Assembly (NCBI RefSeq): GCF_000372725.1
Contig: NW_005201493.1
Coordinates: forward strand, 280,475-344,474
Reading direction: 5' to 3'
DNA from: Emiliania huxleyi CCMP1516
Taxonomy: Eukaryota
Length of the DNA stretch: 64,000 nucleotides
This document shows, in pieces, positions 5,401-49,980 of this stretch (its first letter is position 1; every line of letters starts with the position of its first letter). The notes below the pieces were generated by a model. It was given only the letters and a program-made list of their open reading frames with translations, made no database searches and was not told the origin of the DNA. The translations under genes and the position numbers were made by a program.

Positions 5401-5511
5401 TCGAGGTATTCGGGGCTAGGTCGCACCTGCCGCGAGATGTGGGGAGATGTGGGGAGATGTGGGGAGGTCTGGGGAGATGTGGGGTTAGGACGCACCTGCC
5501 GCGCGCAGCAG

Positions 5512-5549
<38 letters not shown>

Positions 5550-8500
5550 CGCCGCCGTCGCCGCCGCCTTGCCGCCGCGCCGCTTGATCTGGAGCAGCAC
5601 CGACCCGCGCAGCGCGGAGAGCGAGGAGGCCGCCGCAGCGCCGGTGTGCTCGCGCGCGGGCTCGCCGCCTGCGGGCGAGTCGTCGTCTGCGGCCGACTCC
5701 TCCTGCCCAAAGGGCGCGTAGTCCTCCTCCTCCACGCAGCCCGCGCCGGGGTGGCTGCCCGACAGCACGATCAGCCCCTCAAGGAGCTCGACGAAGCTGG
5801 GCGGCTCGTCGCCCTCCTGTTCGCAGCGAGAGGTGTGAAGAGACGCCGTTCACGCCGAGAGCGTCTCCAGCTCGCCCCCCCCCTCGAGAATCTCCCCATA
5901 TCTCCCCAGATCTCCCCATACCTCGAGAATCTCCGGAACAACCGCCGGCCCGAGCTGCAGCAGCAGCGGCTGCAGCCGGAAGCGCCAGGTGAGGAAGCGG
6001 CGGATGGGGACGCCGCTGCCGCGCCTAGCTCGTGTAGTTGGATTTGGGCACCGGGGTTGGTAGGGTACTGCCGCGCGCCGCTGCCGCGCCAGAAGTGGAG
6101 CGACGAGTGCGGCACGCCGCCACGCGAGCAAGAGTAGAGCACCATGAAGGCGCTCCCCGAGAAGAAGATGCCCAGCTCGCTGTCCGGGAGCAGCGCGGGG
6201 GGGCCCTCCGACAGCAGCCACACGTTCAGCATCTCCGAGCCTATTCCACGCAGCTGGGTTCTGGGTACCGGGCTGGGTGGGGTACCACACGTTGTGCCAT
6301 CTCTGAACCCGGGTCCACCGCCGCCCGGGCCCCGCCAGAACGGCTCCTGCCGACGGCGACGGGCGGCGCCGGAGCGGGCCCTTCAGCCGGCTCCTGCTCG
6401 CGCGTCATGCCGCGCTGCTCTCGCATCCGCGCAATCTCCTCCTCCAAGGAGGGCGCCGCGCGCGCCTCCGCGTCCCTCCGCCCCCCCGCCGGGGAGCCGA
6501 CAGCCCACTCGAGACTCGCCTCGCGCGCCCAGTGCCACCGCTGGAACAGCGAGCGGAAGACGGTGCTCTCGCAGCCCTCGCTCTCGCGACAGACCACCGC
6601 TGCACACCCCTCCGCCCCGCCGCCCTCCGCCGGGAGTATTTTTTGAGATATCGACAGTCTCCGGGAGCAAGGTAGGCTATATGGAGCAGAAAATCCCTGG
6701 ATATTCCACCGCTGGATTTTCCCCACGGTATCCCTTAAGAACATTTCGAGGCCTTNNNNNNNNNNNNNNNNNNNNNNNNNNNNNNNNNNNNNNNNNNNNN
6801 NNNNNNNNNNNNNNNNNNNNNNNNNNNNNNNNNNNNNNNNNNNNNNNNNNNNNNNNNNNNNNNNNNNNNNNNNNNNNNNNNNNNNNNNNNNNNNNNNNNN
6901 NNNNNNNNNNNNNNNNNNNNNNNNNNNNNNNNNNNNNNNNNNNNNNNNNNNNNNNNNNNNNNNNNNNNNNNNNNNNNNNNNNNNNNNNNNNNNNNNNNNN
7001 NNNNNNNNNNNNNNNNNNNNNNNNNNNNNNNNNNNNNNNNNNNNNNNNNNNNNNNNNNNNNNNNNNNNNNNNNNNNNNNNNNNNNNNNNNNNNNNNNNNN
7101 NNNNNNNNNNNNNNNNNNNNNNNNNNNNNNNNNNNNNNNNNNNNNNNNNNNNNNNNNNNNNNNNNNNNNNNNNNNNNNNNNNNNNNNNNNNNNNNNNNNN
7201 NNNNNNNNNNNNNNNNNNNNNNNNNNNNNNNNNNNNNNNNNNNNNNNNNNNNNNNNNNNNNNNNNNNNNNNNNNNNNNNNNNNNNNNNNNNNNNNNNNNN
7301 NNNNNNNNNNNNNNNNNNNNNNNNNNNNNNNNNNNNNNNNNNNNNNNNNNNNNNNNNNNNNNNNNNNNNNNNNNNNNNNNNNNNNNNNNNNNNNNNNNNN
7401 NNNNNNNNNNNNNNNNNNNNNNNNNNNNNNNNNNNNNNNNNNNNNNNNNNNNNNNNNNNNNNNNNNNNNNNNNNNNNNNNNNAGAGCACATGCAGGGCGC
7501 ACACCCCTGAGGGCGGGCGGAAGGCTCCGCGGGCAGCCCCAGTGGAGCCCTAACTCGCAGCAGTGGGCCGCCAGGAACCTTCTAGGAACCTTCTAGGAAC
7601 CTTCTAGGCGGACCGCTGGCCGTGCGTGATGCCCCCCCCCCCCCGTGCGGTGTCGCGCTACTAGTACACACGCGCGCGCCTCGCCGGTCGTTGGAGCGGA
7701 GCGACTGCGCGAGCAGCAGCGCGTACGCCTGAATAAATACATAAAGACGGACACCTCTCTACTGTGGGATGGGTAAAAAATGATGGGTAAAAAGGAGTAG
7801 GTCCCTAGGGGCGCTCGTCGAAAGAGCAGACGGAGATGTCTAGGAGGTGTCTCGGACATGTCTAGGAAGTACGCCTTGTCGCAAAGCGGCGCGCTCGGCC
7901 CTGCGAGGTGGAAGACCTCCGACGCGCCTGATCTCGGACAATCTCGGACAATCTCGGACAATCTCGGGGAATCTCGGGGAATCTCGAGGAGGACGTCCGA
8001 CGCGCCCGCCGACGGCGCGTCGAGGACGTAGCAAGCATCGTCCTCAAGCAGCGACGCGCACCCCACGGCTCGGAGCTGCGCCAGCTCGCCCAGGCAGCCG
8101 CGCCGCCCGCCTCGCACGCCGAACAAGCGCGGCCGTGGCGCGGCCTCCGCTGGCGGCGTGCGCCAGTACACGGCCGGAGCAGCTTCTGCCCCCTCGCCTA
8201 GCGGCTCCTCGAGTAGCTCTTCGAGCGACCCGCCGACGAGGGAGCGGAAGAGCGCCGACTCCTCGCCCCGCGCCTCTCGCGCCTGCGAGCAGCGGCCGCC
8301 CACCTCCGCCTCGACGGTCGCGCAGAGCTGCACACACAGCACCGCCGCCGCGCCCGCCTGCTCAGCACATCTCCCCATATCTCCGCATATCTCCCCATAT
8401 CTCCGCATACCTCGGCATATCTCCGCATATCTCCGCATCCCTCCCCATCCCTCCCCATCTCTACCCATCTCTCCCCATCTCTCCCCATCTCTCCCCACCT

Positions 8501-10383
8501 CTCCCCACCTCTCCCATCTGCTCCGCATGTCGGTCCGTGTGACACATCCTCGCCGCGGACGACGGGGCACACGCACTCGCAGAGCAAGCACGGGGCTTCA
8601 CACACACACACACACACACACGAGGCAGCAAGCAGCAGGCGGTGGGCAGCAGGCAGCGGCAGCAGGCAGCAAGCAGCAGGCGGTGGGCAGCAGGCAGCGG
8701 CAGCAGGCAGCAAGCAGCAGGCGGCGGGCAGCAGGCAGCGGCAGCAGGCAGCAGGCGGCAGGCGGCAGGCAGCAGGCGGCAAGCGGCAGGCGGCAGGCGG
8801 CAGGCGGCAGGCAGCAGGCAGGCAGGCAAGCAGCAGGCGGCAGGCGGCAGGCAGGCAGGCAGGCAGGCAAGCAGCAGGCGGCAGGCGGCAGGCAGGCAGG
8901 CAGGCAGGCAAGCAGCAGGGTCGGCGCCGCGGCCGCGCGCGTGATCAGCAGCCCCCTGGCCGAGGGAGCGCTCTCTCTCTCCAGGAAGGGCATCCTCTCC
9001 AGGAAGGGCATCCTCGCTGGCGAGAGGGCAGCAGCGTGCCTGATCTGCGCCGCACCAGTCGCCGATCCAGTAGTGCGCTCGCCACTCGGTGGACGCGCCG
9101 GGTGCGGCGGCGGGGGCGGCGAGGAGGAGGTAGGCGGAGCGGCGGCAGAGGCGGAGGGAGGAGACGTCGCCTTCGACGCGTATGGCGTCGAACTGAACGA
9201 TCCGCCACGCCGCCGCCTGGGGGCATGGGTTGAGGGGGGCTTGGTTGAGGGGGGCTTGGTTGAGGGGGGGGGGGGGGGGGCCTAAAAAAAGGGGGGGTGG
9301 AGGGGCTTGGCCAAGGGGCTTGGCCCAGGAGCAAAAACAAAAAAAGCAGACCCCAGGGAGGGGTGGGGGGGGTGGGGTGGCAGGACAGCAGAGTACAGCA
9401 ACGGCATGCCTCGTCGACGCCGAGCAGTGACGCGACGTCCTCGAAGGGCGCGGACGGGCGCGAGGCGCGCAGCGCGTCCTCGCTGTGCCTGGGAGTGCAA
9501 CAGAAAGTCTGGGAGGTGTCTCGGAAATGTCTAGGGAGTGTTCTGCCCGTCTCTCGGACGTGTGCAGGAAGTGTCTCGGACGTGTCTCGGAAGTGTCACC
9601 GCAGGAAGGCGGCGTACGAGAGGTCGGCGAGGCGGCCGGGCTCGCGGGAGGAGGATCCCGGAGAGGCAGACGCACCCCCCACTCCAAACCCTGCACCGGC
9701 CTCCGCCGCCACGACAGCCGGCGGCGGCGGCGGCGGCGCCTGTGGTGGCGGCGACTCGGCCGCTCCCTCTAACTGCTTGTCGGGCCCGTGTCTCGGCTGG
9801 CCTAGAGGGAGGTAGAGGAGAGGAGGTCCCAGGGGAGCCCGCCCCCGCGTTCCGCCACTGTCCTCTTGCCGCCGCCGTCGGCGGGTGCGGGCGTGGCGAG
9901 GCCGTGGTGCGCCTACAGAGAGGGCGCCGGCAAAAGGCTGGAGAAGAGAGCTCGGCGGGCGGCGTGGGGAGGGCCGTGGTGCACCGCGTCGAGGAGCATG
10001 AGGAAGCCGTCGTACGACTCGTACTGCCGGCACCAGCTCGCGAGCAGCTGCATGAAGTACCGCTCCAGGTCCGAGCAGATCTCTGCGACGTAGCTGGGAT
10101 GGCGGTTGGCAAACCAGCGCGTCCGTGGCAGGCCGGGCAGCTGCAGCCCCGGATGCAGCTCGGCGAGCTCGGCGTGCAGCTTTGCGATCCGCGAGAAGCG
10201 GAGCTCGTACCAGGTGCGCTCGCTCGGAAAGGTGCCCAGGTCCGAGTGCACGCGGACGAGGTAGGCAATGTGCGGGTGCGCCTCGCCCGGCGCGTGGCGG
10301 CGGTCGGACCGGGGCACCTTGACGTAGCAAAACGTGGCGCGGCGGCCGCCGCCTCCGGGCCCGGCGCGGCGGCTTGAAATCAT
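2401..10383 (-). CDS. Multi-exon gelsolin/villin-family protein with N-terminal PX and C-terminal PH domains; spans the assembly gap
   Basis: PX-like exon ~9920-10383 (YLVRVHSD...LRFSRIAKLHAEL...LPGLPRTRWF...LERYFMQLL). Gelsolin-repeat exons: AWRIVQFDAIRV...AYLLL...HYWIG (~9040-9220), PRLFGVRG...LLEDDACYVLDA (~7990-8150), ESEGCESTVFRSLFQRW (~6540-6600), VWLLSEG...FFSGSAFMVLY...HFWRG (~6080-6230), LDSADVFLL, LFQWEG...EASEPAEFW, CTFVWVG. PH exon 2401-2805 (HAGWLRKEG...RRWAVV...LLLFK...WVAALQRA). Exact exon borders and single-gene status are inferred. Confidence 0.7.
2830..3065 (+). repeat. Degenerate telomere-like (TTAGGG/TTCGGG/CTAGGG) array inside an intron
   Basis: gggttaggttaggggttggggctagg...ggttcggg repeated between two exons of the gelsolin-like gene. 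Confidence 0.85.
6756..7482. other. Assembly gap (N run)
   Basis: Continuous Ns. Confidence 1.
8599..8919 (+). repeat. Intronic (CA)n followed by a compound GCAG/GGCA microsatellite
   Basis: cacacaca... then gcagcaggcggcaggcagg... repeats. Confidence 0.9.
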
Positions 10384-20240: not shown

Positions 20241-20410
20241 AGGTAGGTAGAAAGGTGAAGTCTGAAGAACAGCCAGGCTCGGACTGGACACCAACGCGGT
20301 ATGGGTGGACGCTGGACAGATGATGACGAGCTGTTGAAGAAGATGTATGTATGTAGAAAGATGAACAACAGTCAGGCTCGGACTGGACACCAACGCGGTA
20401 TGGGTGGACG
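20241..20410 (+). repeat. Two copies of a dispersed repeat, with an inverted copy at ~62511-62575
   Basis: aacag(c/t)caggctcggactggacaccaacgcggtatgggtgga occurs twice here; its reverse complement is at ~62513-62553. Confidence 0.85.
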
Positions 20411-20660
20411 CGAGACAGATGATGACGACACGCACGAGCGACACACAGGCACAAACAGGCTCACAAGACACACAGCCAGCTGGCTGCCACACACCCTGAG
20501 TTGGCGTACACATAACTCAGGGCCACATTCTCCCTGTCGCCCCCCCCAGCACTCCCGAAGAAAGAAGGACGGAGAAAGAAGAAAACCGGCGGAGTTCGCT
20601 GTGGTCCGCTTCTCGCACGCTGGGTCGCGCTCGACGCAAACACTTCCTCTAGTCCGAGCC

Positions 20661-22997
20661 ATGCCGATGCCTGGCGCCCACCCCACGAACGAGGATCTGA
20701 ACGGCTTCAAGCGTGGCGAGCACGTCGAGGGGCCGCACATCTGCGAGCAGTACGTCTTCCAGGCGCCCGGCCAGACGACCGGTGTCTGGGGCTGGAACGA
20801 CACGCAGGCGCTGTACTGTGCTGCGTGCGGCAGGCTCGCCTCCGACCACGTCGTGCTCGCCAAGCCGACCTTCGAGGAGATCAAGAAGAAGCCGCCACCC
20901 TCGCTCCCGTCGGGCTATGTACAGCGCCGCCTCGGCCACCACCACCTCTCCGAGAGGGCGCACTCACGCCGCGATGCGGTGCGCGCCCAGGTGCTCGACT
21001 CGTCGCAGCTCCTCTCCACTCGCGCGTACCAGGCCGAGCGCGCCGCCTCGGCCAAGACCGCACTCGACATGCTAGACGAGACCGTCGACCCGCTCGCCGT
21101 CGCTGCGCAGATTCGACCCTCGCAGCGCAGGCGCGGGGACGCCTCCGAGACACCTCCGAGACACTTCCCAGCAGAGAGGAGAGAGAGAGAGGCCCCCGAG
21201 ACACGTCCGAGACGCCCCCTCGCGCTCGCTCCGGCACGTGCCTCAATCCTTCGCAGCCTGCTCCCCCTCACCGCCCGCTCACCGCCCGCTCTCTCCTCAC
21301 TGCCTCTGCCCGTCTCCTCGCTTCTGCCAGCCGCGCCGCCGCTGCAGCGCCGGGGTGCGCGCCCGGGTGCGGCCCGACACCGGCAGCGTCGGTGGAGGAG
21401 GAGGCGCTGGCGAGCGCGCTGGCGGGCAGCCTCGGAGTGTCGCACGCGAAGCAGGCCTCCTTCGCCACCCACGGGACTGACCCCGCACCGGATTCGGCAC
21501 TCTGGAGGTATGGCACGTAGGACTCCTTCCCGGCCGGCGGCGGCGCCAAGCCGGACGAGGGGGTCGGGAAAGCGGCGGCTGCTTGCTCGGGGTGAGAGGC
21601 GCGGAGTGGACCGCCGCGAGGAGCCGAGAGTAGGTTGCTGCTCGCGAGACGGCGGCATGGTAGGCCTGGTACTGACCGGTGACATGTCCCATCTCGAGAG
21701 TAGGTTGCTGCGCTGCTCGCCCGCGAGACGGCGTACAACGACTCCTTCAAGGACGAGGTGGAGAGGATGGTGCGAGAGTCTATCGCCGCGGAGCGACGCA
21801 AGGAGCCGGAGTCTGATGCGGAACCTTCTTTCGCCACCCCATACCTGCCCACATCCCCCCACATCTCCCCACACCTCTCCACATCTCCCTACACCTCCCC
21901 ACACCTCCCCACACCTCTCCACATCTCCCCACACCTCCCCACACCTCCCCATACCTCCTCACACCTCCCCACACCTCCCCACATCCCCCCACATCTCCCC
22001 ACATCCCCCCACATCTCCCCACATCTCCCCACGTCTCCCCACATCTCCCCACGTCTCGCCACATCTCCAATAGGAGCTCGAGCTCGAGCTTGACGCGCGG
22101 ATGCCGCCCCAGCAGCCGTCCGCCGCGCCGCCCGCCGGCGCGCCGCGCCACGCGTCGGTGGCGTCGCTGCTCGAGGTCCGAGAGAGGACCACGAGAGATT
22201 ACGCCGAGAGTCGAAGCCGAGAGATTACGCCGAGGAGAGGTTACGCCGAGGAGAGGTTACGCCGAGAGGAGGCCACGCGTGGGCGGTGTTGCTCCTCGAG
22301 GCGGCGCCGCAGTCGACAGTGCGTACTGTGGCCGAGAGGGCGCCGAGAGGATTTCGAGAGGATGACGAGATGTAGTGGAGAGTCAGCCGAGAGGGCGCCG
22401 GAGAGGGCGCCGAGATTAGGACGCGAGTTGAAGCCGAGATGACGCCGAGATGGCGCCGAATAGGCGGCGGCGCTGCCGCAGTACCTGGCGAGCTTCGAGG
22501 AGGAGGCGATGGACGCAGAGACGCTGACGTCGGGGTGATCTCGGGGCGATCTCGGGGCGATCTCGGGTGATCTCGGGCCACTAGGCGATGGACGCAGAGA
22601 CGCTGTATGGTGTGATGGAGTCGCAGGGCCGCACCGCGCTCGAGGAGGCGCGGCCGACAGCCAGAGAGAGAGAGTTGCCCTGAGAATGTGTCCGAGACTC
22701 GCTTGGAGGGATTGCCTGACTCTGCCCGGGCACTGCCAGAGGCTGCCTACAAAGGAGAGAGTGTCTGAGAGACTGCCCGGGCACTGCCTATGTCTGCCGC
22801 TCGTCCGCCACCGCCCGTGCCGTCTGCCCTCTCCGTTTCGTGCCTCCCTAGCCGCACCTCCCCGCGCCCCGCTTCGCTGCAGTTCGTGCCCCCCTAGCCC
22901 CACCTCCCCGCGCCCCGCTGCGCGGCAGGTGCTGCTTGAGCTCGGCGTGCGATCCAAGGGGCACCGGATGAAGATCGCAAACCTGGTCGCGCCGTGA
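20661..22997 (+). CDS. Multi-exon protein with an N-terminal C/H zinc-site motif and a C-terminal SAM domain
   Basis: N-terminal HICEQY...YCAACGRLASDH. SAM pieces LPQYLASFEEEAMDAETL (~22470-22525) and LLELGVRSKGHRMKIANLV (~22930-22990). Repeat-filled introns lie between them. Confidence 0.65.
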
Positions 22998-24390: not shown

Positions 24391-27164
24391 TCACGCGGCC
24401 TCAGAAGCCTCAGTCACGCGGGCCTCAGCCTTGGCGTCGACCTTTGGGTCTGGCGCGGTCTTGCAGTACGACATGACGGACGCCTTGATGCCCCAAATGC
24501 CGGTCCCGATCTCGCCGCTGGTTGGCGAGTACGTCGGGACAGCGCCGCCTGCAGCCGGCAGGCGTGGGTGTGGGGCTGTGGGCGCAAAGGTGGACATTGA
24601 GCGGGGCCGCGGTTCTGGCGAACCAAAGCCAGGGATGTAGGAGATCGCAATCGAGATGGCTGGGGCGACAGAGAGCGCGAAGAAGATGCCCAGACCCGCC
24701 GGCATTCCATAGGCGGTGGGCAGGAAGCCAAGGAGGAGCGCGCTGAGGCCGCAGAACATCGAGTACCTGCAGCCCGTGTGTGGCTAGCATGAGAACGACT
24801 GTCACTTGTTGCGGGGCAGGGCGCAAGAAGGGGCGCGCACGGGATCTGGGTCTTGAAGTGGTCGAAGACGCTGCACTGGCAAGCCGCCGCGGCGAGGCAG
24901 GTGGTGTCCGACACGATGGAGGAGTGGTCGCCCCACACCGAGCCGCCCAGCACGGCGGCGGCGGTGGTATAGAGGATGTTGAGACCTTCGTCAGAGCCGT
25001 CTTCGATGCCCTCGTCGCGGGACAGGTTGATGGCCAGCGGGATCGAGATCGGGAACATGACGGCCATGGTACCCCTGCGAGGCAACGCAGGCGCTGAGGG
25101 TGGAGAGCGCGCGGGCAGTCCCCCGCACACGCGCCAAGCACGCGCCAGGACGTGCCAGTGCCGAGCGAGCAGAGCCAGGCGAGCACAAAAGTGATAGCCG
25201 GAACGATGGCGGGATCCGTGCCCTTGAGGGCGCATCCGAGGTAGTCGGGCATTCCGAGCTCCTCTGAGAGTTTGGCGATGGACTTTGCGAAGATGAGGAT
25301 CCAGACGACTTCGAAGAGGGACCTGCAATGCGCGTGTGCTTTCTGCTCAGCACAGGGCGGACCGGGGAGGGGGGTCTATCGCAGGGTCACGCGCGCACCC
25401 CATCTGATGGCAGCCCGCCTTGATGACCTCAGCCGGCCACATGAGCGGCACCTTGCCAACCTTCTTACCGACCCACGAGTCGTCTCCCTCGGGGACGGGG
25501 ATCCACTGCACAAAGTACAGGAGGGTAACCGCGATGACGCCGAGGCCGCCAACCCACGAGAGGACCGCCCAGCTGTCCGCGTTGCCAATGATGTCGACGA
25601 AGTCCTGTACGCCAGGACGGACAGAGGGGTGAAGAGGGAGGGGGGGAGAAGGGCGGCGGGGGGTGGGGGGGGGGCGGGGTTGAGCACCCCAGACCAGGTG
25701 ACGTTGGGATCGGCGGCCGCGTCTGCTTTGCCTTCCATCGCGTCGAGTTCGTCGCCGCTGTATTCGAGGAAGGGGAGGATAGTGGCCAGGAAGAGTACGG
25801 GCACGATAGCGCCGTTCCACCAGCGGCCCTTGGGGATGCCGGCCTTCGCCTTGACGGGCTCGATCGAGTCCGACGGTCCGGTCGCGACCAGCTTGTTCTC
25901 TTCCCAGCCCTCCTTGCGCGCCTTCAGCTCGGCGAAGTACATTGGTCCCCAGTCGCGGCCCGAGATGGCCATGATGACCACAAAGAAGAGCATGAACCAC
26001 GAGTAGAAGCGGTAAGGCACCTGTGAGCAAGCGAGCGGCAGTCACGGGGAGGACGCGTTTCGCATGACGGGACGCCGCGCGCTCCGAACCGATTTCAGGA
26101 AGACGTCTGTTGCGGTCGCACTCGTGTACGGCGGGGTCGTCAGTGCCAGGGCGTCTCCGATCTGCTGTAGTTCGTCTGTGAGCGGTGGGAGGGCGGCGCT
26201 CGGGTGAGGGAGCTGAGTCTCGTTCTCGGGGGTGCCGAGGGAGCTCTGTCTCGTCTCGGGAGAGCGGCCGGAGCGCACAGGCGATCCACGTCGAGACGAG
26301 CAGAAGGGACGCCACCGGCGCGGCGGTGCAGTCGACCGTGAAGGCAAGCTTCTCCTTGGAGACGCGCATCTTTTGTGCCACCGAGAGCATGCACGCGCCG
26401 ACGACCTGCGTGTTGGCGTCTGCGGGGAGGAGGGGCCAGGGTGAGACGTGCGATGGGCGGTCGGGTCGTGAGCGCGGGGAGGAGGGGCCAGGGTGAGACG
26501 TGCGATGGGCGGTCGGGTCGTGGGGCCCGGGGCGGCCAACGCACAGTCGTCGAAGAAGATCACGAATCCGAAGAGCCAGGTGAAGAACTGGCACATGAAG
26601 GAGTCCTTGATGCCCTTAGACATGAGGTCGGCAAGCGCCTGGACGTGGCAAAGGTGGCGTCGAGAGCGGCGGTGGCGGGCTCGCGGCCGGTGGCGAGGGG
26701 AGGGCGAGCGCCTGGAAGCCCCCGGAGCGGTGTCCCGCGCCCACAATCATCTGCATCAGGAAGACGAAGACGAATATTTGGGAGTACCCATCGATGGCGG
26801 CACTCAGGGCAGTGTCGAAGAAGCCGCGGAAGCCGGCCCACGCGTTGCCCTCCTGTTGTGATTAGAGCGGCGGCGACCGGCGGTGAGAGGGCGTGATCTT
26901 GGGTGATGTGCTAGGCGAGCGGTTAAGTTGGGCATGGTGAGATGTGGGCGGCGCCTTGATGCACCAGCCAATCCAGATGGCCGTTCCCATCGACAGTGGC
27001 GGGTTCCGCGAGAGGACGGAGAAGAGCAGCATCATCAGGATCGGGACGAAACAAGTAAAGCCGTATCCGTAGTCGACGTCAGAGCGGCAGCACGCGCCGG
27101 ACTCGTACTGCTCTGCGATCTCTGTGAGATCGCAGCCGGCAAGGACATCCTCCACGTCGCACAT
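24391..27164 (-). CDS. NhaC-family (Na+/H+ antiporter-like) transporter, multi-exon
   Basis: Family motifs across exons: FGFVIFFDD/ANTQVVG, VSKEKLAFTVDCTAAPVASL..VSTWIA, PYRFYSWF, SLGTGTSW/GTMAVMFPI, AVLGGSVWGDHSSIVSDTT, FDHFKTQIP. Start codon uncertain. Confidence 0.85.
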
Positions 27165-30398: not shown

Positions 30399-33300
30399 TC
30401 AGAAGGAGCCTCTCACTGCCATCACATCGCCAGCCTCGTTGCTGCTGGCCATCCGTGCGTACTTGTCGCCGCACGCCATGCGGATGCGCTCGCTAGTCGC
30501 CGGCGCGAAGAGCGTGAGGGGTGCCGTGGAGGGGCCTGCCACGTGGTCTGCGCGCGCGGCGGCGACCTACAGGGAAGTTCCGAGAAGGTTCAGGGAAGGT
30601 TCTGGGGAGGCTCATCCTTTGCTCGAGCAGGCGGCGGCGGCCGCGTTGCGGATCGCGAGGAAGGTGACCGCGCCGAGGAAGAAGGGGGGCTCGCCCACCG
30701 CCTTGGACGAGTGGACGGCGACCTTGTTGTCGACGCCCGACATGAGGCGCACGTGCAGCTCGCGCGGCGTATCGTTGAAGCTCGGCAGCTTGTACGTGCC
30801 GGGCCCGCGCGAGTGGAGCCCGCCTATGATGTATGGGTTGATGGTTAAACAAGAATGTCTTGCACGTGCCGGGCCCGCGAAGGTGGAGCCCGCCGCGAGG
30901 CTGCACCCACCCGTGCGTGTCGTCGCCCCAGAGGAGCTCCTCGGTGGTCGTCCAGCCCATGCCCTGGGTGAAGCCGCCCTCGACCTGCCCGATGTCGAGC
31001 GCGGGGTTGATGGACGAGCCGACGTCGACGAGCAGGTCGGCGCGCCGCACCTCGTGGTCGCCGGTGAGCACGTCGATCTCAACCTCGACGCAGCCGACGC
31101 CCTGCGTGAAGTAGTTGTGGCAGAGGCCCCGCGCCGCCTGGTCGGGCGTGCCGTCCGGCTTGACGCCGGGCGGCGCCCGAAAGTCGAAGCCGCACCGGCG
31201 CTCGTCCAGCGCGAAGTAGCCGTGTGCGCTCAGGTCGATGCGCGAGAAGTACGCGGCGGTGGCGAGCTCGGCGAGGCTGGCCTTGGCGCCAACCGCCTCG
31301 CGGAGCGGCTTGAGGCGCCGCAGGATCTGCCGGCACGCGTCGAGGGTCGCCATGCCGTACAGGTCCGTCGAGAGCGAGCCGGCGCTGGTGATGGAGTTCG
31401 CCACCTTGTCCGTCGCCGTGTCGGCGACGTGGCACGCCGAGAGCGGTATTCCGAAGGCGCGCGCCGCCACCTGGCACACCTTTGTGTGCAGGCCCTGCCC
31501 CATCTCGCAGCCGCCGTGCGAGATGAGCACCGTGCCGTCTGTGTAGACGTGCACGAGCGCGCCGCCTATGCATAGTACAGCATGATACGACATCTCGCAA
31601 ACACAAACTTCAAGCGCACGAGCGCGCCGCCCTGGTTCATGAAGCGCGCGTAGAAGTTGATGCCATACTTCGTCGGCACGAACGCGAGGCCTCGCTTCCT
31701 CCACCGATTCTGCGCGTTGAAGCCCGCCACCGCAGCCGCGCGAGCGTCGACGTCCGCGTCCTTACGGAGCGTCGCCATCGCGCGCGGCACCCGCCACTCG
31801 TCCTCTGCGAGCGTCTGGCCGAACGGCATCTCGTCGCCCGCCGCGTACAAGTTAGCAGCGCGCAGGCGGTCTGCGCTGACGCCCATCGCGCTCGCGAGGT
31901 GCTCGAGGATGTGCTCGCAAACCAGCATAGCCTGTGGCGAACGCGTCACACTTCTATCAGACGGGGGCTGAGTCAGCTTCCGGGCGCGACGGATGTGTCC
32001 GTGAAGGCGGCTGCACGGGCAGTCGTGCAGCAGCGGAAGAAGGTCCTCGCCCTGGGACAAGCGAGCCTGTGGCGAGCCGAAGCCGCGGAATGCCGTGTTG
32101 GACGGCATGTGTGTCCGGCACACCACGCCCCTCGCGCGATAGCTGGGCCAGAGGTAGCAGTTGTCGAGGTGCGTGAGAGAGCGGTCCATCACCGCCGAGG
32201 AGACGTCTAGCGACGCGCCGCCATTGCTGTAGAACTAGAGGGTTGTTGGGCGGGGGTTGCAAGGGGGGAAGGAGTGGTGAGAGGAGAGGGAGTGGAGATG
32301 GGGAGGGGGTGGTGAGGAGGAGGAGTTGGAGAGGGGCGAGGGAAGGGGGCGTGCGCAGCGGGCGCAGTAGCACACCTGCACGTCGAGCGCGGCAAGCTTC
32401 GGCTCCCCCGTCTCCGGGTCGACGCGTGCTGCCGCCTTGTACGTGGCCAGGTACGGGTGGCGGCCGCCGCTGGCGAGCATGTCGAGGTCGCGGCGCAGCG
32501 AGAGGCGGACGGGCCGCCTGCTCCGAGATGTGGCCGAGATGATGGCCGAGAATAGCCGAGGTTTGGCATGGGGCGGGCGGGCCGCCTCATCAGGTGGGCG
32601 GCCAACGCGCACGCGCAGTGCGCAAAGGCGACCCGCGTCTCCTTGCCGCCAAAGCCGCCGCCCAGCCGCTTCACCTTGGCGACGACCTTGTTGAGCGGCA
32701 GACCACACGCCTTGGCGACGCTCTTCTGCAGGTTCTCGAGCGCCTGCGCCGAAGCCAGAACGCGCAACCTTTCGTGGAATCTCGGGGTGATCTCGGGTGA
32801 TCTCGGGTGATCTCGCGTGATCTCGCGTGATCTTGGGTGGTCTCGGGAGATCTCAGGAGATCTCGCGCGCCTGCGTCGAGGCCAGGATGTGCAGCCCTCC
32901 CTCCTCCGTCGGGGTGCACAAGGAGCAGTGCCCCTCGAGGTAGAAATGCTCCTGACACAGTAAACTAATGACTTGCCTTAGATCAGTCAATACTGCCCCT
33001 CGAGGTAGAGGTGCTCCTGCCCGCCAATCTTGAAGTCGCCCTCCACGACCGTCAGCCCTCCCGCGAGCAGCGCTTGGCCGACGGGCACGCCGTGCTCGAG
33101 CTCGTGCCGCGAGTCGAAGAAGCCCTCCTACGGCCGAGAGGCAGCCGAGGTGGCACCTGCGCGCATCGCGCGGCCGAGACGAGGGGGGGGCCCTCCTCGT
33201 CAAAGAAGGGCCCTCCTCGTCAAAGAAGGAGGAGTGTCTAGGAAGTGTCTAGGGAGTGTCTAGCCGCCCTCCTCGTCAAAGAAGGAGTTCGCGGCGATCG

Positions 33301-36300
33301 CGTCCTCGATCGTGTAGCACGGAGTCACCCCGGCAGCAGGCGGGCCATACGCCACGCGGACGAGGTCGCTGGCGAGGCGCGCCTTATGTGCGCCAATTAC
33401 CCATCACCATCAAGAACAATCAACATGATTACTGATAGGCCGCTGGCGAGGCGCGCCTCCTCGCAAGAGCGCGCGACGACGACCGCGATCACCTGGCCGA
33501 CGTGGTCTGTCGAGCCCTCCGCGAACAGGAGCTCGTCCTGCTTGATCGGCCCCATCGCGTTGCTGCCCGCCGCAGGCACGTCGGCCGCCGTCAGAATCCG
33601 GACGACACCGGCCGATGCGGCGGCCTACTGACGACGAAAGTGCTGAACCCTCGTACTGTTTGAGTAATGAATATGTAACAGGCGGGCGGCCTCGGCCGTG
33701 TCGACGGACTCGATCGTCGCGGGCGCCTGCTGCGCGGTCACGAGAGCCGCGTGCAGCCCCCCCGGCGGCAGCGGCGCGTCGTCGGTGTACTCGGCCGAGC
33801 CGCTGGTGTGCCTCGCGCCCGCCAGGTGCGGAAGCGACTGCCCAACCACCCGGACGCCGCCCGCCTATTGCATACTCATCAATCACTCCTCGCGTTCATT
33901 AGGTGATACTCGTAGCAACCACCCGGACGCCGCCCGCCTTGGCCGCCTCCGTCTCGACCGGCGCGGTGATGCACGACGTCGCGACGTCCGGCGAGGCCAC
34001 GTCCGCCTCGAGCCCGGGGTAGCTGGCGTGCGGGTACCTATTATGTATTTAGTCACGAGCTGCCGGCTTCTCATTCCTCAATAGCCAAAGGTAGCTGGCG
34101 TGAGGTGTACCGCTGCGAGCCGCTCACCGACGGCTTTGGCTCGAGCAGCCAGGAGCGAGCTGCCGACCTCTCCGCCGCGTCGACCACCGGCGGCGCCGGA
34201 GCATCGCCTGCAGAGCGGTACTCCGGGGCGCCAAGCGCGATGGAGGTGGCGACGAAAGTCTTGAAGACGGCCGATGCGGCGAGCGCGGTCCGGTACTCTG
34301 GCTGCCCGCCCGGCGCAGACGCGCCGACGCGCAGCTCGTCGACGACAGCCGCGCACGCCTCCTCGACGCTCTGCGCATCCCACGGCCGGCCAACCAGCGC
34401 CGCCGCCGCCTTGCGCGCCACCACCACGGTCGGCGCGAGGCCGCCGAACGCGAAGCACGTGTCCACCACCATGTACACGCCGCCGGCCGGCTGCAGGCGG
34501 ACGCGCAGCCCGGCGGTCACGATGGAGATGTCGTCCTCGCGGCGCCGCGCCTGCTGGCAGGGCCGCGGATGAACTGGAGCCCCTCCACGGCCAATCAGCG
34601 AATTGGTTGAGCATGCGCCTGCTTGAAGGGCCGGATGAACTCGAGCCCCTCGGCGCGCGGCACGTGCACCGAGAGCAGCATCTCGTCCTCGCGCAAGTCG
34701 ACCTAATCAGTGGGTGAACTCATCAAGGAGTGAGATGTGTGAAGCGTCCGCCTCGCCCAAGTCGACCTTCCGGTAGCCGAGGAGGAAGGCCGAGAGCGGC
34801 ACGGCGCGCTTGCCGCGGGCGGAGGAGACGAGGGTGACGGAGGCGCCGCAAGCCACTAGCAGCGGGACCATGTCCGAGATGGGAGACGCGGTGACGAGGT
34901 TGCCTAATCGATAGCGACAACAATTTCACAACAGTGCTACGTTCAATTAGTCAGAGACGGGCGACGCGGCGACGAGGGTGCCGCCGAGGCACGCGACGTT
35001 GCGGATCTGCGTCGATGCGAACCAGCGGAGCATGCAGGCGATGGCGCGTGCCGCCTCGCCCGCGCAGCCGGGCAGCGCCTCGCCGCGGCGGGCGCAGAGA
35101 GCCTGCGGGACGTGTCGTGGACGTGTCGTGGACGTGTCGTGGACGTGTCGTGGACGTGTCGTGGACGTGTCACTGTGCGACGCCGAGCGGCGCGGACAGG
35201 TCTTGCGTGGGGCAGCAAGCCTCGACGGCGGTCAGGCTCGCGCACGCCCCGAGTGTGAGAGCGCCCTCCGCCTAGCCGCGAGACGGCCGAGGTTCGGCCG
35301 AGGTTCGGCCGAGGTTCGGCCGAGATATCGCCGAGATGAGATGTAGCCCGAGATACAGCGCCCTCCGCCTCGGCGACAGCGTACAGCTCGGCGACCAGGC
35401 GCGGCGAGAGGAGGGTCGCGCACTGCCGGCTCTTGTACCGCGCCTCGATGCCCAGCTCCGTGTTGCCGGCGACGACCCTGCTCTGCGGGTGTGCCGCCTT
35501 GAGCGCGAGCAGCTCGTCCAAAGAGGCCGGCCGCCACCAGGTGGCGCGCGGGGAGGCGATCCAGAGCGGCGACGGCGCGGCCGACAGCTCACTCGGCATC
35601 GCCTGAGCATTCACATTCAGACTTACTGACTAAGTCGTGGGGCGCGATCAGGAGCGCAGTAGGCATCACCGGCTCGCTTGCTGCCGCGCGCGAGTCGCAG
35701 TACCGCTCGGAGGAGTAGACGGCCAGCTTGTCGGCGGTGGCCGTCACCACGTCCCCGTCCACCAGAAGGCGGCCGCTGGGGTCGGCAGGATGTTCGCAGC
35801 CATTGCCATTGGCGCAGCCGTTGCCTCCGCCGCAGCCGTTGCCGCCGCCGCCGCCGCTGCCGTCGCCGCTGCCACTGGCGCAGCAAGGCCCGCCGCCACC
35901 GCACGGCGCGTCGGCGCAAAGGGACTTGGCGGCGTCGAGGATCGGACGATACCCAGTGCAGCGGCAGAGGTTGCCATCAAGGTGATCCGCAACTTCTTCC
36001 ATGGCGAGTTTCGGCGACGCTCGCAACGCAGAGTAGAGAGACATGACAATCCCCGGCGTGCAAAAGCCGCACTGGCTGCCGTGCATCTTGGCCAGGCGCT
36101 CCTGCACCGGGTGCAGATCTCCGTCCTCCGAGCCGCCGATCCCCTCGACGGTCGTGATTGCCGTCCAGTCTGCTGAGCAGAGAGGCATCAGGCACGCGTT
36201 GACCGACTCGTGCTTCAGGTGGCCCGTGGCCGGATCGCACGCGGACACCATCACCGTGCATGCGCCGCAGCCACCCTCGCCGCAGCCCATCTTGGTGCCT

Positions 36301-36452
36301 GACAACCCGACGGAGCGGAGATACTCGAGCAACGTCATGGTCGGGTCGGCGTCTGGGACCTCGTGCCGTGCGCCATTGACATAGAAGATGAGCGACGTGC
36401 GGTAGTTCGTCCCGAACGGGACTTTGTCCTCGTAAGCGAGCGAATGCGGCAT
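30399..36452 (-). CDS. XDH: Xanthine dehydrogenase (2x[2Fe-2S], FAD and Moco domains), many short introns
   Basis: GTKMGCGEGGCGACTV, SQCGFCTPG, GNLCRCTGYRPI, VAGNTELG, WFASTQIRNVA, FKQ/ARRREDDI, QEHFYLEG, KRLGGGFGGKETR, SNTAFRGFGSPQ, HGGCEMGQGLHTK, DIGQVEGGFTQGMG, SSKAVGEPPFFL, PATSERIRMAC. Confidence 0.95.
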
Positions 36453-39012: not shown

Positions 39013-41788
39013 TTACCTTACCTTCTTGGCCGTGATGTCGCGGCCCTGCGCGTCAAAGGTCCTCCTCCCAGCGGGGTCGCCAAACTGCCACGCGCTCGCG
39101 CGGCCCTCGAAGAAGCCCGAGAAGAGGTCGCACTCGATCACGCCCTTCTTCTCGCCGGCGAGGTCCTGCCAGGGGGCTGATGGCTTCAAAGCGGCGGTTA
39201 GCGGTGGTGGTGAGGGCGGGGGGAGGCGGAGGGGGTGGGGCGGGGAGGGGGGCATGAGGGAGGGCACCCATAGCAGAGATGCCGTCGTGCGGCCAAAGAG
39301 ACCCCAGCGGGCGGGCGCCCCGGGCGGTAGCTCTGGCGTGGGGGCGGAGGGGTCGGCGGAGAGGGCGTCGACGGCGTCGACGACCGACCAGTGGCAGCGG
39401 TAGCGGCCTGTCGCGAGGTCGGGCAGCAGCGGGAACGACGAGATGCGCAGCGAGAGCAGGTCGCCTCTATCGAGCCCGCACCTCGCCGCGAGGGTGCGCA
39501 GAAGCCCGGGCGACCCAAAGTCGATCTCGGTCACGGTCTGGAGGCGGCGTAAAGGGGCGGATGAGCCAAAATGAGCCGAGATGAGCTAAGATGAGCCGAG
39601 ATGAGGCGAGATGATCTGAGATGAGCCGAGATGAGGCGAGATGATCCAAGATGATCCGAAGTGGACTGAGGCAAGCCGATACGAGGTGAGCCGAGGTGAG
39701 CCGAGCTGGGCCGAGGATCGTCACCTGGTTGCAGAACTGCGGCAGACCTATCAGGACATGCTCGCGGGCAGCACCCTCCTCCCGCGGCAGCACATAGGTT
39801 TGGAGCAGCCAGCCGAGGCACTTGGTGTTGCCGCGAGCGCGTGCGAGCGTCCCAAGGCCACCGAGGAGACCGTCCGCGCCGAAGTCTACTCACAGCGACG
39901 CGTGAGACGGAACGTGCGCGCACACGCGGCAGCGCTGGCGACGGCCAAATGCTTGGCGGTGTGGACGGCGGGCGGCCGTGAGGGTTGATAGCGGTATTGG
40001 CCGGGGACCCGCTGCACCGACGGTCCCCGCCGATGGCATCGGGCCCCGCCGATGGCAACGAAGCCCAGTTCAGCGGGTTGACGACGGCATCGGGGACCCG
40101 CAGCGCAGGGTCCGCCGGTGCGAAGAGCGCGAAGGCGCCGGGGACCCGGTTCAACTTGGCGAGCGCGGAGGCCTGTTGTCAACGCTAAGGTTATTGACGA
40201 TGAGTCACTACTCATTCATAGTAGGAGCTTGGCAGGCGCGGAGGCCTTGGCGGCGAAGATGTGTGTCGCGTGGTTGCCAGAGTAGTTTCGGATGGCGAGC
40301 AGGTACGACCTGATGGAGGAAGGAATGAGCGACTCAGTTAGTGGCCGCTGGAGGTCGAGCAACGGCGCGAGCAGGTAGGACATCGAGTCCGGGCGCAGGT
40401 TGCCGAGCACGGGCGCGAAGTACTGCGACGCGAGGAGGAAAGCGGCGAGGGGCGGCGGAGGCGCCGCCAGGAAGGCGCGAGGCGCGCAGGAGTGGAGGCC
40501 GAACAAGTACCACTCGAGAAAGATGTTTGCCGCGTTCCACTCGCCTGCGAGCGAGCAAGCGGCACACACCTTTCCTTCGTCCACCCAGAAAGCGCCGGTG
40601 TCCAGTGTCCGAGGCAGACTCTTCGTCGTCAAACGCCGTTGATCCCTGCCCGAGAGAATCTACCTCAAAACTACTGGCGCCTCACCGATCCCTCCCAGCG
40701 GGTTGGCGAGGATGATGAAGGCGTGCATGCCGCCCACGAGCAGCACGCCGAGCCGCGCCGCTACTCCGCCCGCGAGCCACAGGAGAGGACCTGGGGTCAG
40801 GGATAGGTTAGGGTCGGGGTCGGCGTAGGGCTAGGGTGAGCCAGCCATAGGAGAAAGGACCGGCCAGCTCGGCGATCACGCCCGCGAGCGCGAGCAGCAT
40901 GGACGCCCCCGACGGCGCCGCGTCGCCCGCCCGGGCGTCCTTGAAGGCGAGTGCGCGCACGGCCTCCGGGAAGCACGGCGCCATCCCAAACATGGTTGGC
41001 ACTGCCGCAAGGGGTGGGGCCGTCGAGAGGCGGGAGGCAGAGAGAGGCAGCAAAGCGGGGCGAGGCAGAGGGGGGGGGGGGGGGAGCGGCGCACCGACGT
41101 TAATCCACCATGGGCCCAGCTTGCACAGGCCCGAGAAGAAGATGTGCGCAAATTGAGTGGCTTGCATCGCAGCGAGCGTGCCGGCCGGCCCAGCAAACGC
41201 GGCACTGAGCAGGAGCGGGTAGAAGTGCTTGCCCTGCCCGCCGCACCACGCACTGTAGTCGCGCAGGCACAGGGCGGTGAACGCGCCTGCAAAGAGGCGC
41301 AGCGCCTGCGCATGGGCATGGCCGGTCGAGCCGATCGTCGCGACAGCGGTGAAGAGCGTGCTGATCAAGACAAGCGCGTCCAGTCGGCTGCGGCCGCTAG
41401 GAGGCGTCGACGGGTCTGCGAACGGTGACTGACGGAGCGTGCCCGGCGTGAGCCGAAACCACAGGGGCGTGAGGAGGGTATGTCCGTCGCCTAGCTGGCC
41501 GTCCGCGCCGCCAAAGCCGGATACTTCTGTCGCGACGAACCAAACGACGACCTTTGCGACCAGCTCTGGCCCGATGGCGGCGCCGAGCGTCAGCGTCCCG
41601 ACGAGGGGAAGGCCAACCACAATCGCAAACCTGGTTGCGTGGTACTTGACCGGCGTGGTGCGGAGGCAGCTGGCGGCCGCCAGGCTCGCCATCCGCTCGC
41701 CGATGGAGTCGATCGCGCTGTCGTCGATGGAGTCGTCCGCCGATGTGGTTGCGCTTCCTCCGACGTTGCCGGTGGCGTAAGACGCCAT
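39013..41788 (-). CDS. DUF3556-like multi-pass membrane protein, multi-exon
   Basis: FFSGLCKLGPWW, HAFIILANPL, EWN, PVLGNLRPDSMSYLL/AIRNYSGNHAT, NPHGR and ISSFPLL...WSVVDA resemble recalled DUF3556 motifs. 3' end uncertain. Confidence 0.6.
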
Positions 41789-48720: not shown

Positions 48721-49544
48721 CTCTCGTGCGTCCGACACCGCCGCCGCTGCGCGCGCGCCCGCGGTCGACGGTCGTCCTCAACACGTGAGAGCCAATCCAC
48801 GTGCGGACGACCCCGCCATAATAACAGTGTTAGAAACGGTGCAAACGGTGCAAACGGTACATCAGTAGAACAGGTTTCATGTAGTTAGTACAAGAAATCA
48901 GGCGTGAGGGAGTTGAGAGTTGTAGAGAGATGGAATACCGCACCCTCACCGGCTCGACCGACTACTTGACGGCTCGACTGCTTCTCCTCAGGGGAGAGAC
49001 CGCGAGAAATAGGGACGCCGTTGGCGCGCTCGCCTTCGCAGCGCGCCGCAGCGAGAGCTCTAACACTCACTCCAGAGTGAAGATGCCGAAATCCTCGTAC
49101 GGTGGCGGGTCGGGCCAGTCAACTGGCTCCGCCTCGCATGGCACCCATGCTTCGCCTCTGCCCCACGCCAGCAGCTCGTTGTCGCGGGCGATTTGCTCGG
49201 CCTCTTCCTTCTTCAACAGAGCCTCGAGGAGGCGCAAGAGTCGGGCGTCATCGCCTGTCTCGGCCAGCATCTCGTGCACTGACGTCGGGCTAAGCAGCGA
49301 CCTGGGAGCCTTGATGGTACCCGATCGGCGGCGCCGTAAGGGGACAACCATCGGGCCCATGGACCGCTCGTCGCTGTTAGATGGTGAGCCAAGCGGGCGC
49401 GGGGGCGGCATGGCTGACCCGTCGCCGACACACCGAGACGCTGGGAGAACGCGAGGGCCTCGAGGAGGTCGAGGAGGGGATACGTCGGATGCATCTCGGC
49501 GATCTTTTAGCTTACTGGGATCTCTCGGATCTCTCGTTGTATGT

Positions 49545-49980
49545 GTGTACTTTTAGCTTACTGGGAGAAAAGGGAGAGGGGGTTGTGTTCAAGGGCCCTA
49601 CGCGCGGCGTGAGAGCTCGGAAGCGAGCTTTGCACGGCGATCGAGGATGGCACGGTTCACCCCCTTCACCGAAGCGATGGAGATGCGTTCCGCGTGGTGT
49701 GACACAAATGAGAGGCGGGAGTGGGGAGGGTACGCGGTGCGGTCAACGCCCGAGCGTTGAGCCTTGCGCGCAAGGCGGTCGATCTTTGCAACTGCAGGCG
49801 GCGAGAAGCCGCCGCCGAATGTCTCGTGGAGAAGCAGGTTGAACTTGTTTCGTTTGGTGAAGATTCCATCATGGTAGTGGCCACGCTGTGACTTGACGTA
49901 GCCTTGGCCGGTGGCGTGGTCGAACGCCCGTTGACCACAGAACCCGCGTTGCTTGCAGCCCATGTTTGCAAGGCGGGCTC
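49545..49980 (-). mobile_element. 5'-truncated RLE-type (CRE-like) non-LTR retrotransposon 3' end with a 15-bp TSD
   Basis: Encodes GHYHDG...LLLHETFGGGFSPPAVAKIDRLAR...ERISIASVKG. TSD tctctcgttgtatgt at 49530-49544 and 49981-49995. Confidence 0.75.

What the first reader, a model, noticed from the sequence alone, without database searches (positions are those of the whole stretch)
30780..35380. XDH introns carry direct-repeat copies of the adjacent exon including the splice site: apparent intron birth by duplication plus filler
Seen: intron 33865-33937 (minus strand, AAG|GC...TAG|GC) begins with a copy of the next exon, and caaccacccggacgccgcccgcct occurs at 33843 and 33916. Other cases are cgctggcgaggcgcgcct (33367/33441), gcacgagcgcgccgcc (31551/31616), tgcccctcgaggtaga (~32929/~32994), gccctcctcgtcaaagaagg three times (~33190-33285) and agcgccctccgcct (~35260/~35356). 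At ~34553-34618 the intron end instead copies the upstream exon. The fillers between the repeats are unrelated to each other. Established: tandem duplication of an AG|GY segment is a proposed intron-gain route, and introner TEs leave TSDs. Inference: a recent, high-frequency intron-generating process that also explains the GC donors.
Basis: partly seen in the sequence, partly recalled or inferred. Interest (0 to 1): 0.85.

Follow-up and report, generated by a model that had tools for sequence, protein, structure and literature searches.

The report
Algal introns carrying their birth scars
Most of the 19 predicted introns in this marine alga's xanthine dehydrogenase gene start or end with a 12-39-base copy of the neighbouring exon next to unrelated filler DNA, likely scars of DNA-break repairs that created the introns, a known route seen here at unusual density.

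Summary
A homology-based model gives 19 introns. Of these, 13 carry a junction-anchored exon copy scoring 12 or more, against 0 of 342 mismatched pairs and 0 of 10 introns of the NhaC gene in the same window. An independent metagenome contig has the same last three introns, so it is no assembly artefact. Only 1 of 19 positions is shared with three other haptophyte-like XDH genes. Copies vary in length and decay; AT-rich fillers are mutually unrelated and lack terminal inverted repeats, so this is not an introner family. The same build occurs in other genes of the window. Best reading: intron birth by staggered-break repair, as inferred for Daphnia, but with longer duplications, higher density and GC/GA donors copied from the exon. 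Unexplained: in 12 of 13 cases one end of the copy lies within 3-4 bases of the splice junction (39% expected). The process feeds GC donors but does not explain the lineage's tolerance of them. Splicing is not confirmed by RNA. The scan noted similar scars in other protist genomes.

The parts
30400..36452 (-). Xanthine dehydrogenase gene, 20 predicted exons, 1460 aa
   Evidence: Spliced alignment to three homologs; model length; Pfam Fer2, Fer2_2, MoCoBD_2
35603..35669 (-). Intron 1, GT-AG, 67 nt; decayed copy of next exon (20 of 30 bases, score 8)
   Evidence: (2 of 3 homologs gave these borders)
35272..35368 (-). Intron 2, GC-AG, 97 nt; 14-nt exact copy, 11-nt satellite filler
35103..35220 (-). 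Intron 3, GC-AG, 118 nt; weak copy (score 6.5, not significant), 11-nt satellite filler
34904..34981 (-). Intron 4, GC-AG, 78 nt; 33-nt copy with 5 mismatches, 45-nt filler at 36% GC
34703..34766 (-). Intron 5, GT-AG, 64 nt; 18-nt copy with 1 mismatch
34551..34618 (-). Intron 6, GC-AG, 68 nt; ends in a 35-nt gapped copy of the upstream exon, plus 4 nt of the next
34038..34110 (-). Intron 7, GT-AG, 73 nt; 22-nt copy with a 1-nt insertion; filler holds a 17-nt piece resembling exon DNA about 60 nt upstream
33865..33937 (-). Intron 8, GC-AG, 73 nt; 24-nt exact copy, 49-nt filler at 43% GC
33625..33690 (-). Intron 9, GC-AG, 66 nt; 8-nt exact copy, AT-rich filler
33383..33456 (-). Intron 10, GC-AG (AAG acceptor), 74 nt; 22-nt copy with 1 mismatch
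33128..33274 (-). Intron 11, predicted GA donor at 33274 or 33271; two extra internal copies of the junction sequence, satellite filler
   Evidence: 33274 fits homolog length best, scores were computed with 33271
32952..33016 (-). Intron 12, predicted GA-AG, 65 nt; 26-nt copy with 2 mismatches; the downstream copy keeps the conserved EHFYLE, the intron copy has lost it
32744..32870 (-). Intron 13, GC-AG, 127 nt; copies on both sides (26+10 nt, 7 mismatches), 10-nt satellite filler; the only position shared with L002 and L025/L026
32518..32585 (-). Intron 14, GC-AG, 68 nt; 16-nt copy with 1 mismatch
32235..32375 (-). Intron 15, GT-AG, 141 nt; no copy (ordinary C-rich intron)
31932..32066 (-). 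Intron 16, GC-AG, 135 nt; 12-nt exact copy, mostly of the upstream exon; in frame with no stop if retained
31566..31630 (-). Intron 17, GC-AG, 65 nt; 16-nt exact copy; identical in L001
30824..30893 (-). Intron 18, GC-AG, 70 nt; 36-nt copy with 4 mismatches, 34-nt filler at 32% GC; identical in L001
30567..30641 (-). Intron 19, GC-AG, 75 nt; 12-nt copy with 1 mismatch (score 9.5), 11-nt satellite filler
40173..40381 (-). Two introns of the same build (40310-40381, 40173-40245) in a DUF3556 gene; a related genomic ORF (P0333) reads through both positions
24403..27035 (-). Control: NhaC antiporter gene, 10 GC-rich CAG-ending introns, none with a copy scoring 12 or more

Best explanation
These predicted introns were likely born inside exons when staggered DNA breaks were repaired, duplicating the target and trapping unrelated filler DNA between the two copies. 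Shown: the layout exon-copy-filler-copy-exon, with duplications of 12-39 nt in the 13 clear cases; fillers that are AT-rich and unique, or 10-11-nt satellite, or telomere-like; no shared ends; and positions mostly absent from related genes. Inferred: fill-in of the overhangs makes the duplication, and end joining captures or synthesises the filler. An insertion would survive only if the spliceosome removes exactly one copy plus the filler. That would be easy in this lineage because GC and GA work as donors: a G|GC, G|GT or G|GA in the first copy serves as donor, and the filler end, mostly TA plus the duplicated G or T plus the duplicated AG, serves as acceptor. A size floor near 64-78 nt would explain why long copies go with short fillers. 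The intron copy then decays neutrally. The crowding of breakpoints at the junction is attributed to selection for filler-supplied acceptor context, which is untested.
For: Copies far beyond controls (13 of 19 vs 0 of 342 and 0 of 10). Exact position sharing: 1 of 17 with L026, 1 of 14 with the E. huxleyi-type L002, 0 of 19 with L022. The nearest XDH clade (quick tree) includes 1365-1505-aa products on ENA contigs of 8-27 kb; gene calls from that source read through introns, so those genes are probably intron-free. The 12 non-satellite fillers are no more alike than shuffles (mean 6.19 vs 5.96), and 1 of 19 shows a terminal inverted repeat at p<0.05. Nine AT-rich fillers average 41% GC against 63-78% for NhaC introns; TAG acceptors 11 of 19 vs 0 of 10. 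Copy and filler lengths anticorrelate (rho -0.76, n=9). Locally templated pieces occur in introns 7 and 11. Scars of the same build with no evident splice alignment lie at 3928-4031, 22722-22788 and 49504-49566. Daphnia neointrons show 4-12-bp repeats and AT-rich inserts of unknown source (PMC4202315, passages).
Against: The breakpoints are not random. The copy starts within 3 nt of the junction in 10 of 13 cases (21% expected, P=3e-5), and one end lies within 3-4 nt in 12 of 13 (39% expected, P=9e-5); the null models only the splice dinucleotides. No consistent branch-point motif was found to justify the selection argument. Intron 13 sits at a position shared with two other lineages, yet it and the L026 intron each carry a copy of their own exon, which requires parallel gain or later overwriting. 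The orthologs compared are distant (the named and unnamed homologs are about 60-65% identical), so absence there does not date the gains. No filler source was found (one filler pattern and one 1.2-kb stretch only). Genes differ strongly: 2 of 9 in DUF3556, 0 of 10 in NhaC. No RNA evidence.
Confidence: 0.62

Rival explanations
1. Junction-templated overwriting: a break in an existing intron is partly repaired from a template that lacks the intron (spliced RNA, cDNA, or an intron-free allele). Synthesis crosses the exon junction, stops after 10-35 nt and rejoins the old intron, so one intron end becomes a copy of the adjacent exon and the donor becomes whatever the next exon starts with.
For: Predicts the one-sidedness directly (12 of 13), the steady total length with copy and filler lengths trading off, and own-exon copies at the shared position of intron 13 and L026. 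Intron 22176-22463 of a SAM-domain gene holds an internal copy of its own spliced junction (score 25 vs shuffle maximum 17). RNA-templated break repair is reported in human cells (PMC12065846, PMC11390984; search listing and start of abstract only).
Against: Fillers do not look like this genome's ordinary introns (AT-rich and TAG-ending vs GC-rich and CAG-ending). 18 of 19 positions are unshared. NhaC introns, several apparently shared with E. huxleyi (retained-intron peptides in P0185), have 0 of 10 strong copies. The SAM case also fits two successive duplication-plus-filler events; its second half alone is only p=0.013.
Confidence: 0.17
2. Retro-insertion of intron ends: a non-LTR retrotransposon's enzymes insert 3' fragments of excised intron RNA, which end in AG, at nicked exonic targets, giving variable target duplications and a built-in acceptor.
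For: Variable duplication length, with the start fixed at the acceptor in 10 of 13 cases; three satellite fillers have relatives elsewhere in the window; non-LTR-derived introners exist (PMC12130899, passages).
Against: Satellite fillers occur in both orientations relative to transcription (intron 13 vs introns 2 and 14; read). It does not cover the upstream-exon copies (introns 6, 13, 16). No source copy of any AT-rich filler lies in 64 kb, though that is a small sample. Non-spliced scars show no evident AG rule.
Confidence: 0.1
3. Pure tandem duplication of a 65-75-nt exon segment, with the middle later eroded or replaced.
For: Intron 13 has copies on both sides; a whole intron unit is duplicated at 4430-4575; tandem duplication is a demonstrated route (PMC3443670, passages).
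Against: Exact 16-24-nt copies end abruptly against 32-43% GC filler with no trace of exon homology.
Confidence: 0.05
4. A classical introner transposon family with target-site duplications.
For: A related alga has one: three homologous introns with about 7-nt duplications in L026.
Against: No filler homology, no terminal inverted repeats, no fixed duplication length, and no match of the L026 element in the window.
Confidence: 0.04
5. Assembly artefact, or a gene broken by insertions that is not spliced.
For: No RNA evidence; two borders need GA donors.
Against: L001 matches 1465 bases without gaps; 5 of 8 cluster members read through the intron-18 copy; removing 19 segments restores an uninterrupted 1460-aa XDH aligned to 14 homologs; GA donors are validated in Emiliania (PMC4028052).
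Confidence: 0.02

Closest known systems
Daphnia pulex neointrons from repair of staggered double-strand breaks (PMC4202315, passages; PMC3020277, passages; Li et al. 2009 seen only as cited)
   Same: [quoted passage not shown]
   Different: Daphnia repeats are 4-12 bp (33 such repeats among 90 gains). Here they are 12-39 nt in 13 of 19 introns of one gene, the donor is mostly GC or GA copied from the exon, fillers include satellites and telomere-like DNA, and the three introns checked in a second natural copy are present there too.
Introner elements (10.1101/2022.06.06.494994, PMC12130899, PMC11282704; passages)
   Same: Donor co-opted from the target-site duplication, acceptor brought by the inserted DNA; many lineage-specific introns per gene.
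   Different: No homologous family, no terminal inverted repeats, no fixed 3-8-nt duplication. Screens that cluster introns by sequence would miss these.
Intron gain by tandem genomic duplication of an AG|GY segment (PMC3443670, passages; Rogers 1989 and Hellsten 2011 recalled)
   Same: Both splice sites come from a duplicated exonic motif, and the coding sequence is unchanged.
   Different: The duplication supplies only part of the intron; most is foreign filler, and the acceptor is usually completed by the filler.
GC- and GA-donor introns of Emiliania huxleyi (PMC4028052, passages)
   Same: GC majority and a few percent GA donors; AG acceptors.
   Different: That paper ascribes GC donors to genome GC content; the passages seen mention no exon copies at intron ends.
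End-joining-like integration in Ostreococcus tauri (PMC8002553, passages)
   Same: An alga inserting DNA flanked by a direct target duplication, with 55-83-bp fillers mostly of unknown origin.
   Different: Laboratory vector insertions, one 518-bp duplication, no intron formation.

Membership tests
Break-repair neointrons (Daphnia type) | Direct repeat spanning the two splice junctions, above the background of established introns | tested here: met
   13 of 19 vs 0 of 10 NhaC introns and 0 of 342 mismatched pairs
Break-repair neointrons (Daphnia type) | Intron absent at that position in relatives | tested here: inconclusive
   18 of 19 positions unshared, but the orthologs are distant and intron 13 is shared
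Break-repair neointrons (Daphnia type) | Insert not repeated, AT-rich, no transposon ends | tested here: met
   Met for the nine AT-rich fillers; satellite fillers are GC-richer and have relatives
Break-repair neointrons (Daphnia type) | Presence/absence polymorphism within the species | tested here: inconclusive
   L001 has introns 17-19; 5 of 8 cluster members carry intron 18, the other 3 end before it; no intron-free allele seen
Break-repair neointrons (Daphnia type) | Precise removal from mRNA | not tested
   No reads were obtained; borders rest on protein homology
Introner transposons | Family of homologous introns | tested here: not met
   Filler-filler similarity at shuffle level within 64 kb; a genome-wide test was not possible
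Introner transposons | Terminal inverted repeats and/or fixed-length target duplication | tested here: not met
   1 of 19 at p<0.05; duplication length varies from 12 to 39 nt
Pure tandem-duplication introns | Whole intron is a copy of flanking exon sequence | tested here: not met
   Fillers of 29 nt or more without exon homology in every copy-bearing intron
Non-LTR retro-insertions | Insert traceable to a source RNA, with a fixed orientation | not testable with these tools
   No whole genome is held; satellite fillers lie in both orientations

The most novel reading that the evidence does not exclude
The splice junction itself directs the process: spliced RNA, its cDNA or an intron-free allele templates break repair across the exon junction, writing exon copies onto intron ends genome-wide. 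That would continually make and remake introns and replace GT donors with GC or GA, so a haptophyte's non-canonical donor majority would be a by-product of junction-templated DNA repair.
Probability: 0.17. Interest if true: 0.88.

Novelty: new variant of a known kind. Interest (0 to 1): 0.6.

Why it matters
The source of most new introns is still open, and recent surveys argue that transposons dominate (PMC12130899, abstract passage). This genome appears to gain introns at high density with no transposon family, by a route that homology-clustering screens cannot see. Each intron carries its own clock (divergence between the two copies) and its own breakpoint record. In a haptophyte genome with RNA data, one could therefore measure the rate, age spread and splice-site origin of break-repair intron gain for thousands of introns, and test whether it feeds the GC-donor majority known from Emiliania. 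Nine literature searches returned no paper whose title or abstract start describes this in haptophytes; the library holds only openly licensed papers, and no supplements were read.

Tried and rejected
No whole genome was available, so genome-wide counts and filler clustering were limited to 64 kb. No sequencing reads were obtained. A search for transcript-derived proteins of this species returned only genomic read-through products. XDH in viral contigs: nothing. Filler source: one 22-nt pattern from intron 8 found 0 matches in viral contigs and 0 in prokaryote genomes; a 1.2-kb stretch gave no phage match and 11 short plasmid hits, mostly to bacterial xdhB, none examined as a filler source. 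Terminal inverted repeats: rejected. Branch-point motif enrichment: inconsistent. Templating of fillers from within 250 nt: 5 of 19 at p<=0.02 with simple shuffles and no multiple-test correction; only introns 7 and 11 were taken as real. Frame test on 12 copy-bearing candidates outside XDH: 9 of 12 joined the best codon frames; two failures were a coordinate slip and a poly-alanine effect, and both give open frames; +21634-21703 stayed unsupported. Spliced-alignment 'introns' judged spurious by eye and not used as positions: the first in L026, the first in L002, and those of L003, L045, L050, L051; two L026 donors are placed a few codons early. The first repeat scans were swamped by N runs and satellites, were cut in the output, and were replaced, which left out six repeat-protein regions. 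The careful tree did not finish; the quick tree is cited.


Full report
Gene and organism. The interval lies in a xanthine dehydrogenase gene on the minus strand, 36452 to 30400. Spliced alignment to three homologs gave 19 introns, with the same borders except alternative donors for introns 1, 2 and 8 in one homolog each. Removing them yields an open 1460-aa protein that aligns across the junctions to 14 homologs. The organism is inferred to be a haptophyte: its NhaC gene is 550 of 593 identical to a Gephyrocapsa oceanica transcriptome protein. Its XDH is only 62% identical to the E. huxleyi CCMP1516 protein and groups with unnamed sequences in a quick tree. No whole genome is held, and no RNA reads were obtained, so all borders are predictions.

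Observation. With a gapped score anchored at the junctions, 13 of 19 introns reach 12 or more and 17 of 19 reach 8 or more. Mismatched intron/flank pairs give 0 of 342 and 13 of 342; the ten NhaC introns give 0 and 1 (Mann-Whitney p=6e-5). An unanchored scan finds 13 pairs in the gene region, none in the spliced sequence and at most one in five codon shuffles. L001, an independent metagenome contig, matches 1465 bases with three substitutions and no gaps and carries introns 17-19. Five of eight members of the matching protein cluster read through the intron-18 copy; the other three stop short of it. An assembly artefact is thus very unlikely for that part of the gene.

Anatomy. Each case reads exon, copy, filler, copy, exon. 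In the 13 clear cases the duplication is 12-39 nt, from exact to about 20% diverged, which suggests a spread of ages. In introns 4 and 12 the exon copy keeps residues conserved in homologs while the intron copy has changed. Donors are GC 13, GT 4 and GA 2, and equal the next exon's first two bases in 16 of 19; acceptors are TAG 11, CAG 7, AAG 1. Nine short introns (64-78 nt) have unique fillers averaging 41% GC, with copy and filler lengths anticorrelated. Others hold 10-11-nt satellites, three with relatives elsewhere in the window. The 12 non-satellite fillers are unrelated to each other and fillers lack inverted ends. Introns 7 and 11 contain pieces copied from nearby DNA.

Beyond XDH. A DUF3556 gene modelled from a homolog has 2 of 9 introns at score 12 or more and a third at 9, and a related genomic ORF reads through the two strong positions. 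Further candidates lie in several other genes, one filled with telomere-like repeats, and a few scars of the same build lie outside exons. XDH is the extreme case of the three genes modelled (Fisher p=0.0004 against NhaC, 0.04 against DUF3556).

Are the introns new? Of 58 loci fetched, 11 were spliced-aligned. Exact sharing with window positions was 1 of 17 for L026, 1 of 14 for L002 (an E. huxleyi-type gene by the tree), 0 of 19 for L022, and none for three AT-richer, more distant loci. The shared one is always intron 13. The nearest clade includes full-length products on ENA contigs of 8-27 kb; since gene calls from that source read through introns, these genes are probably intron-free. Several NhaC positions appear shared with E. 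huxleyi, judged from retained-intron peptides in its annotation. Gain is therefore likely for most positions, but the comparators are distant.

Mechanism. Variable long duplication plus heterogeneous filler, without a family, fits repair of staggered breaks with fill-in and end joining. This is the route inferred for Daphnia, where such repeats are 4-12 bp (PMC4202315, passages; PMC3020277, passages), and it resembles integration scars in Ostreococcus (PMC8002553, passages, a lead from note e1-567562). The control that PMC3443670 asks for, repeats at gained versus established introns (passages), is met here within one window. Tolerance of GC and GA donors, validated in Emiliania (PMC4028052, passages), would make many such insertions spliceable. 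The process then adds non-GT donors (15 of 19 vs 3 of 10) but does not create the tolerance. Introners co-opt donors from their duplications in the same way (10.1101/2022.06.06.494994, passages), and L026 has such a family, but the window's introns fail the family, inverted-repeat and fixed-length tests.

What does not fit. If breakpoints were random and only splice dinucleotides were selected, 21% of duplications would start within 3 nt of the junction; 10 of 13 do (P=3e-5). One end lies within 3-4 nt in 12 of 13, against 39% (P=9e-5). Selection for a filler-supplied acceptor may account for this, but I found no consistent branch-point motif. Intron 13 and its L026 counterpart each end in a copy of their own exon at a shared position, and an intron in a SAM-domain gene holds an internal copy of its spliced junction. 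These keep alive repair templated across the junction (0.17) and retro-insertion of intron ends (0.10). Against overwriting of old introns, the AT-rich TAG-ending fillers do not resemble this genome's ordinary GC-rich CAG-ending introns.

Novelty and verdict. The route is known and the scan has noted small clusters of such scars in other protists (unchecked notes). What is new here is the density, the length of the duplications, a within-genome control and the junction bias. Nine searches showed no listing describing this in haptophytes; subscription papers and supplements were not seen, and Rogers 1989 and Hellsten 2011 are recalled only. New variant of a known kind; interest 0.6.

Noticed in passing
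L026:5854-6030, 6398-6595, 9012-9210 (also L025:1174-1372): Three homologous introns with inverted-repeat-like ends and about 7-nt target duplications that supply the GC/GT donor: a classical introner family in another haptophyte-like XDH gene, with a fourth copy on the other strand near 2968-3153.
   Followed up: partly
window 22176-22463 (+): Intron of a SAM-domain gene with a diverged copy of its own spliced exon junction in the middle, between two satellite blocks; the next intron (22506-22584) starts with a 23-nt exact copy.
   Followed up: partly
window 2831-3078, 4430-4575, 5427-5495, 6025-6089, 7928-8005, 61191-61260, 61346-61495, 61583-61650 (all -): Further candidate introns of the same copy-plus-filler build in other genes; 2831-3078 is filled with telomere-like repeats and 4430-4575 is a doubled intron unit.
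   Followed up: partly
window 3928-4031, 20263-20428, 22722-22788, 49504-49566: Duplication-plus-filler scars in apparently non-coding DNA, three with no evident splice alignment.
   Followed up: no
window 30400-36452 versus 24403-27035: NhaC is 550 of 593 identical to a Gephyrocapsa oceanica transcriptome protein, but XDH is only 62% identical to E. huxleyi XDH and groups with unnamed, probably intron-free genes; a separate paralog or a transferred intron-free gene could explain why its introns look younger.
   Followed up: partly
XDH introns 4, 9, 11, 15, 19: Five of the six introns with length divisible by three contain an in-frame stop, in two cases the acceptor TAG itself; intron 16 is the exception.
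   Followed up: no
L026:6968-10002 and L025:2797-2927: Several ordinary introns share a similar 5' end (GT followed within about 12 nt by a C run), possibly an old intron family.
   Followed up: no
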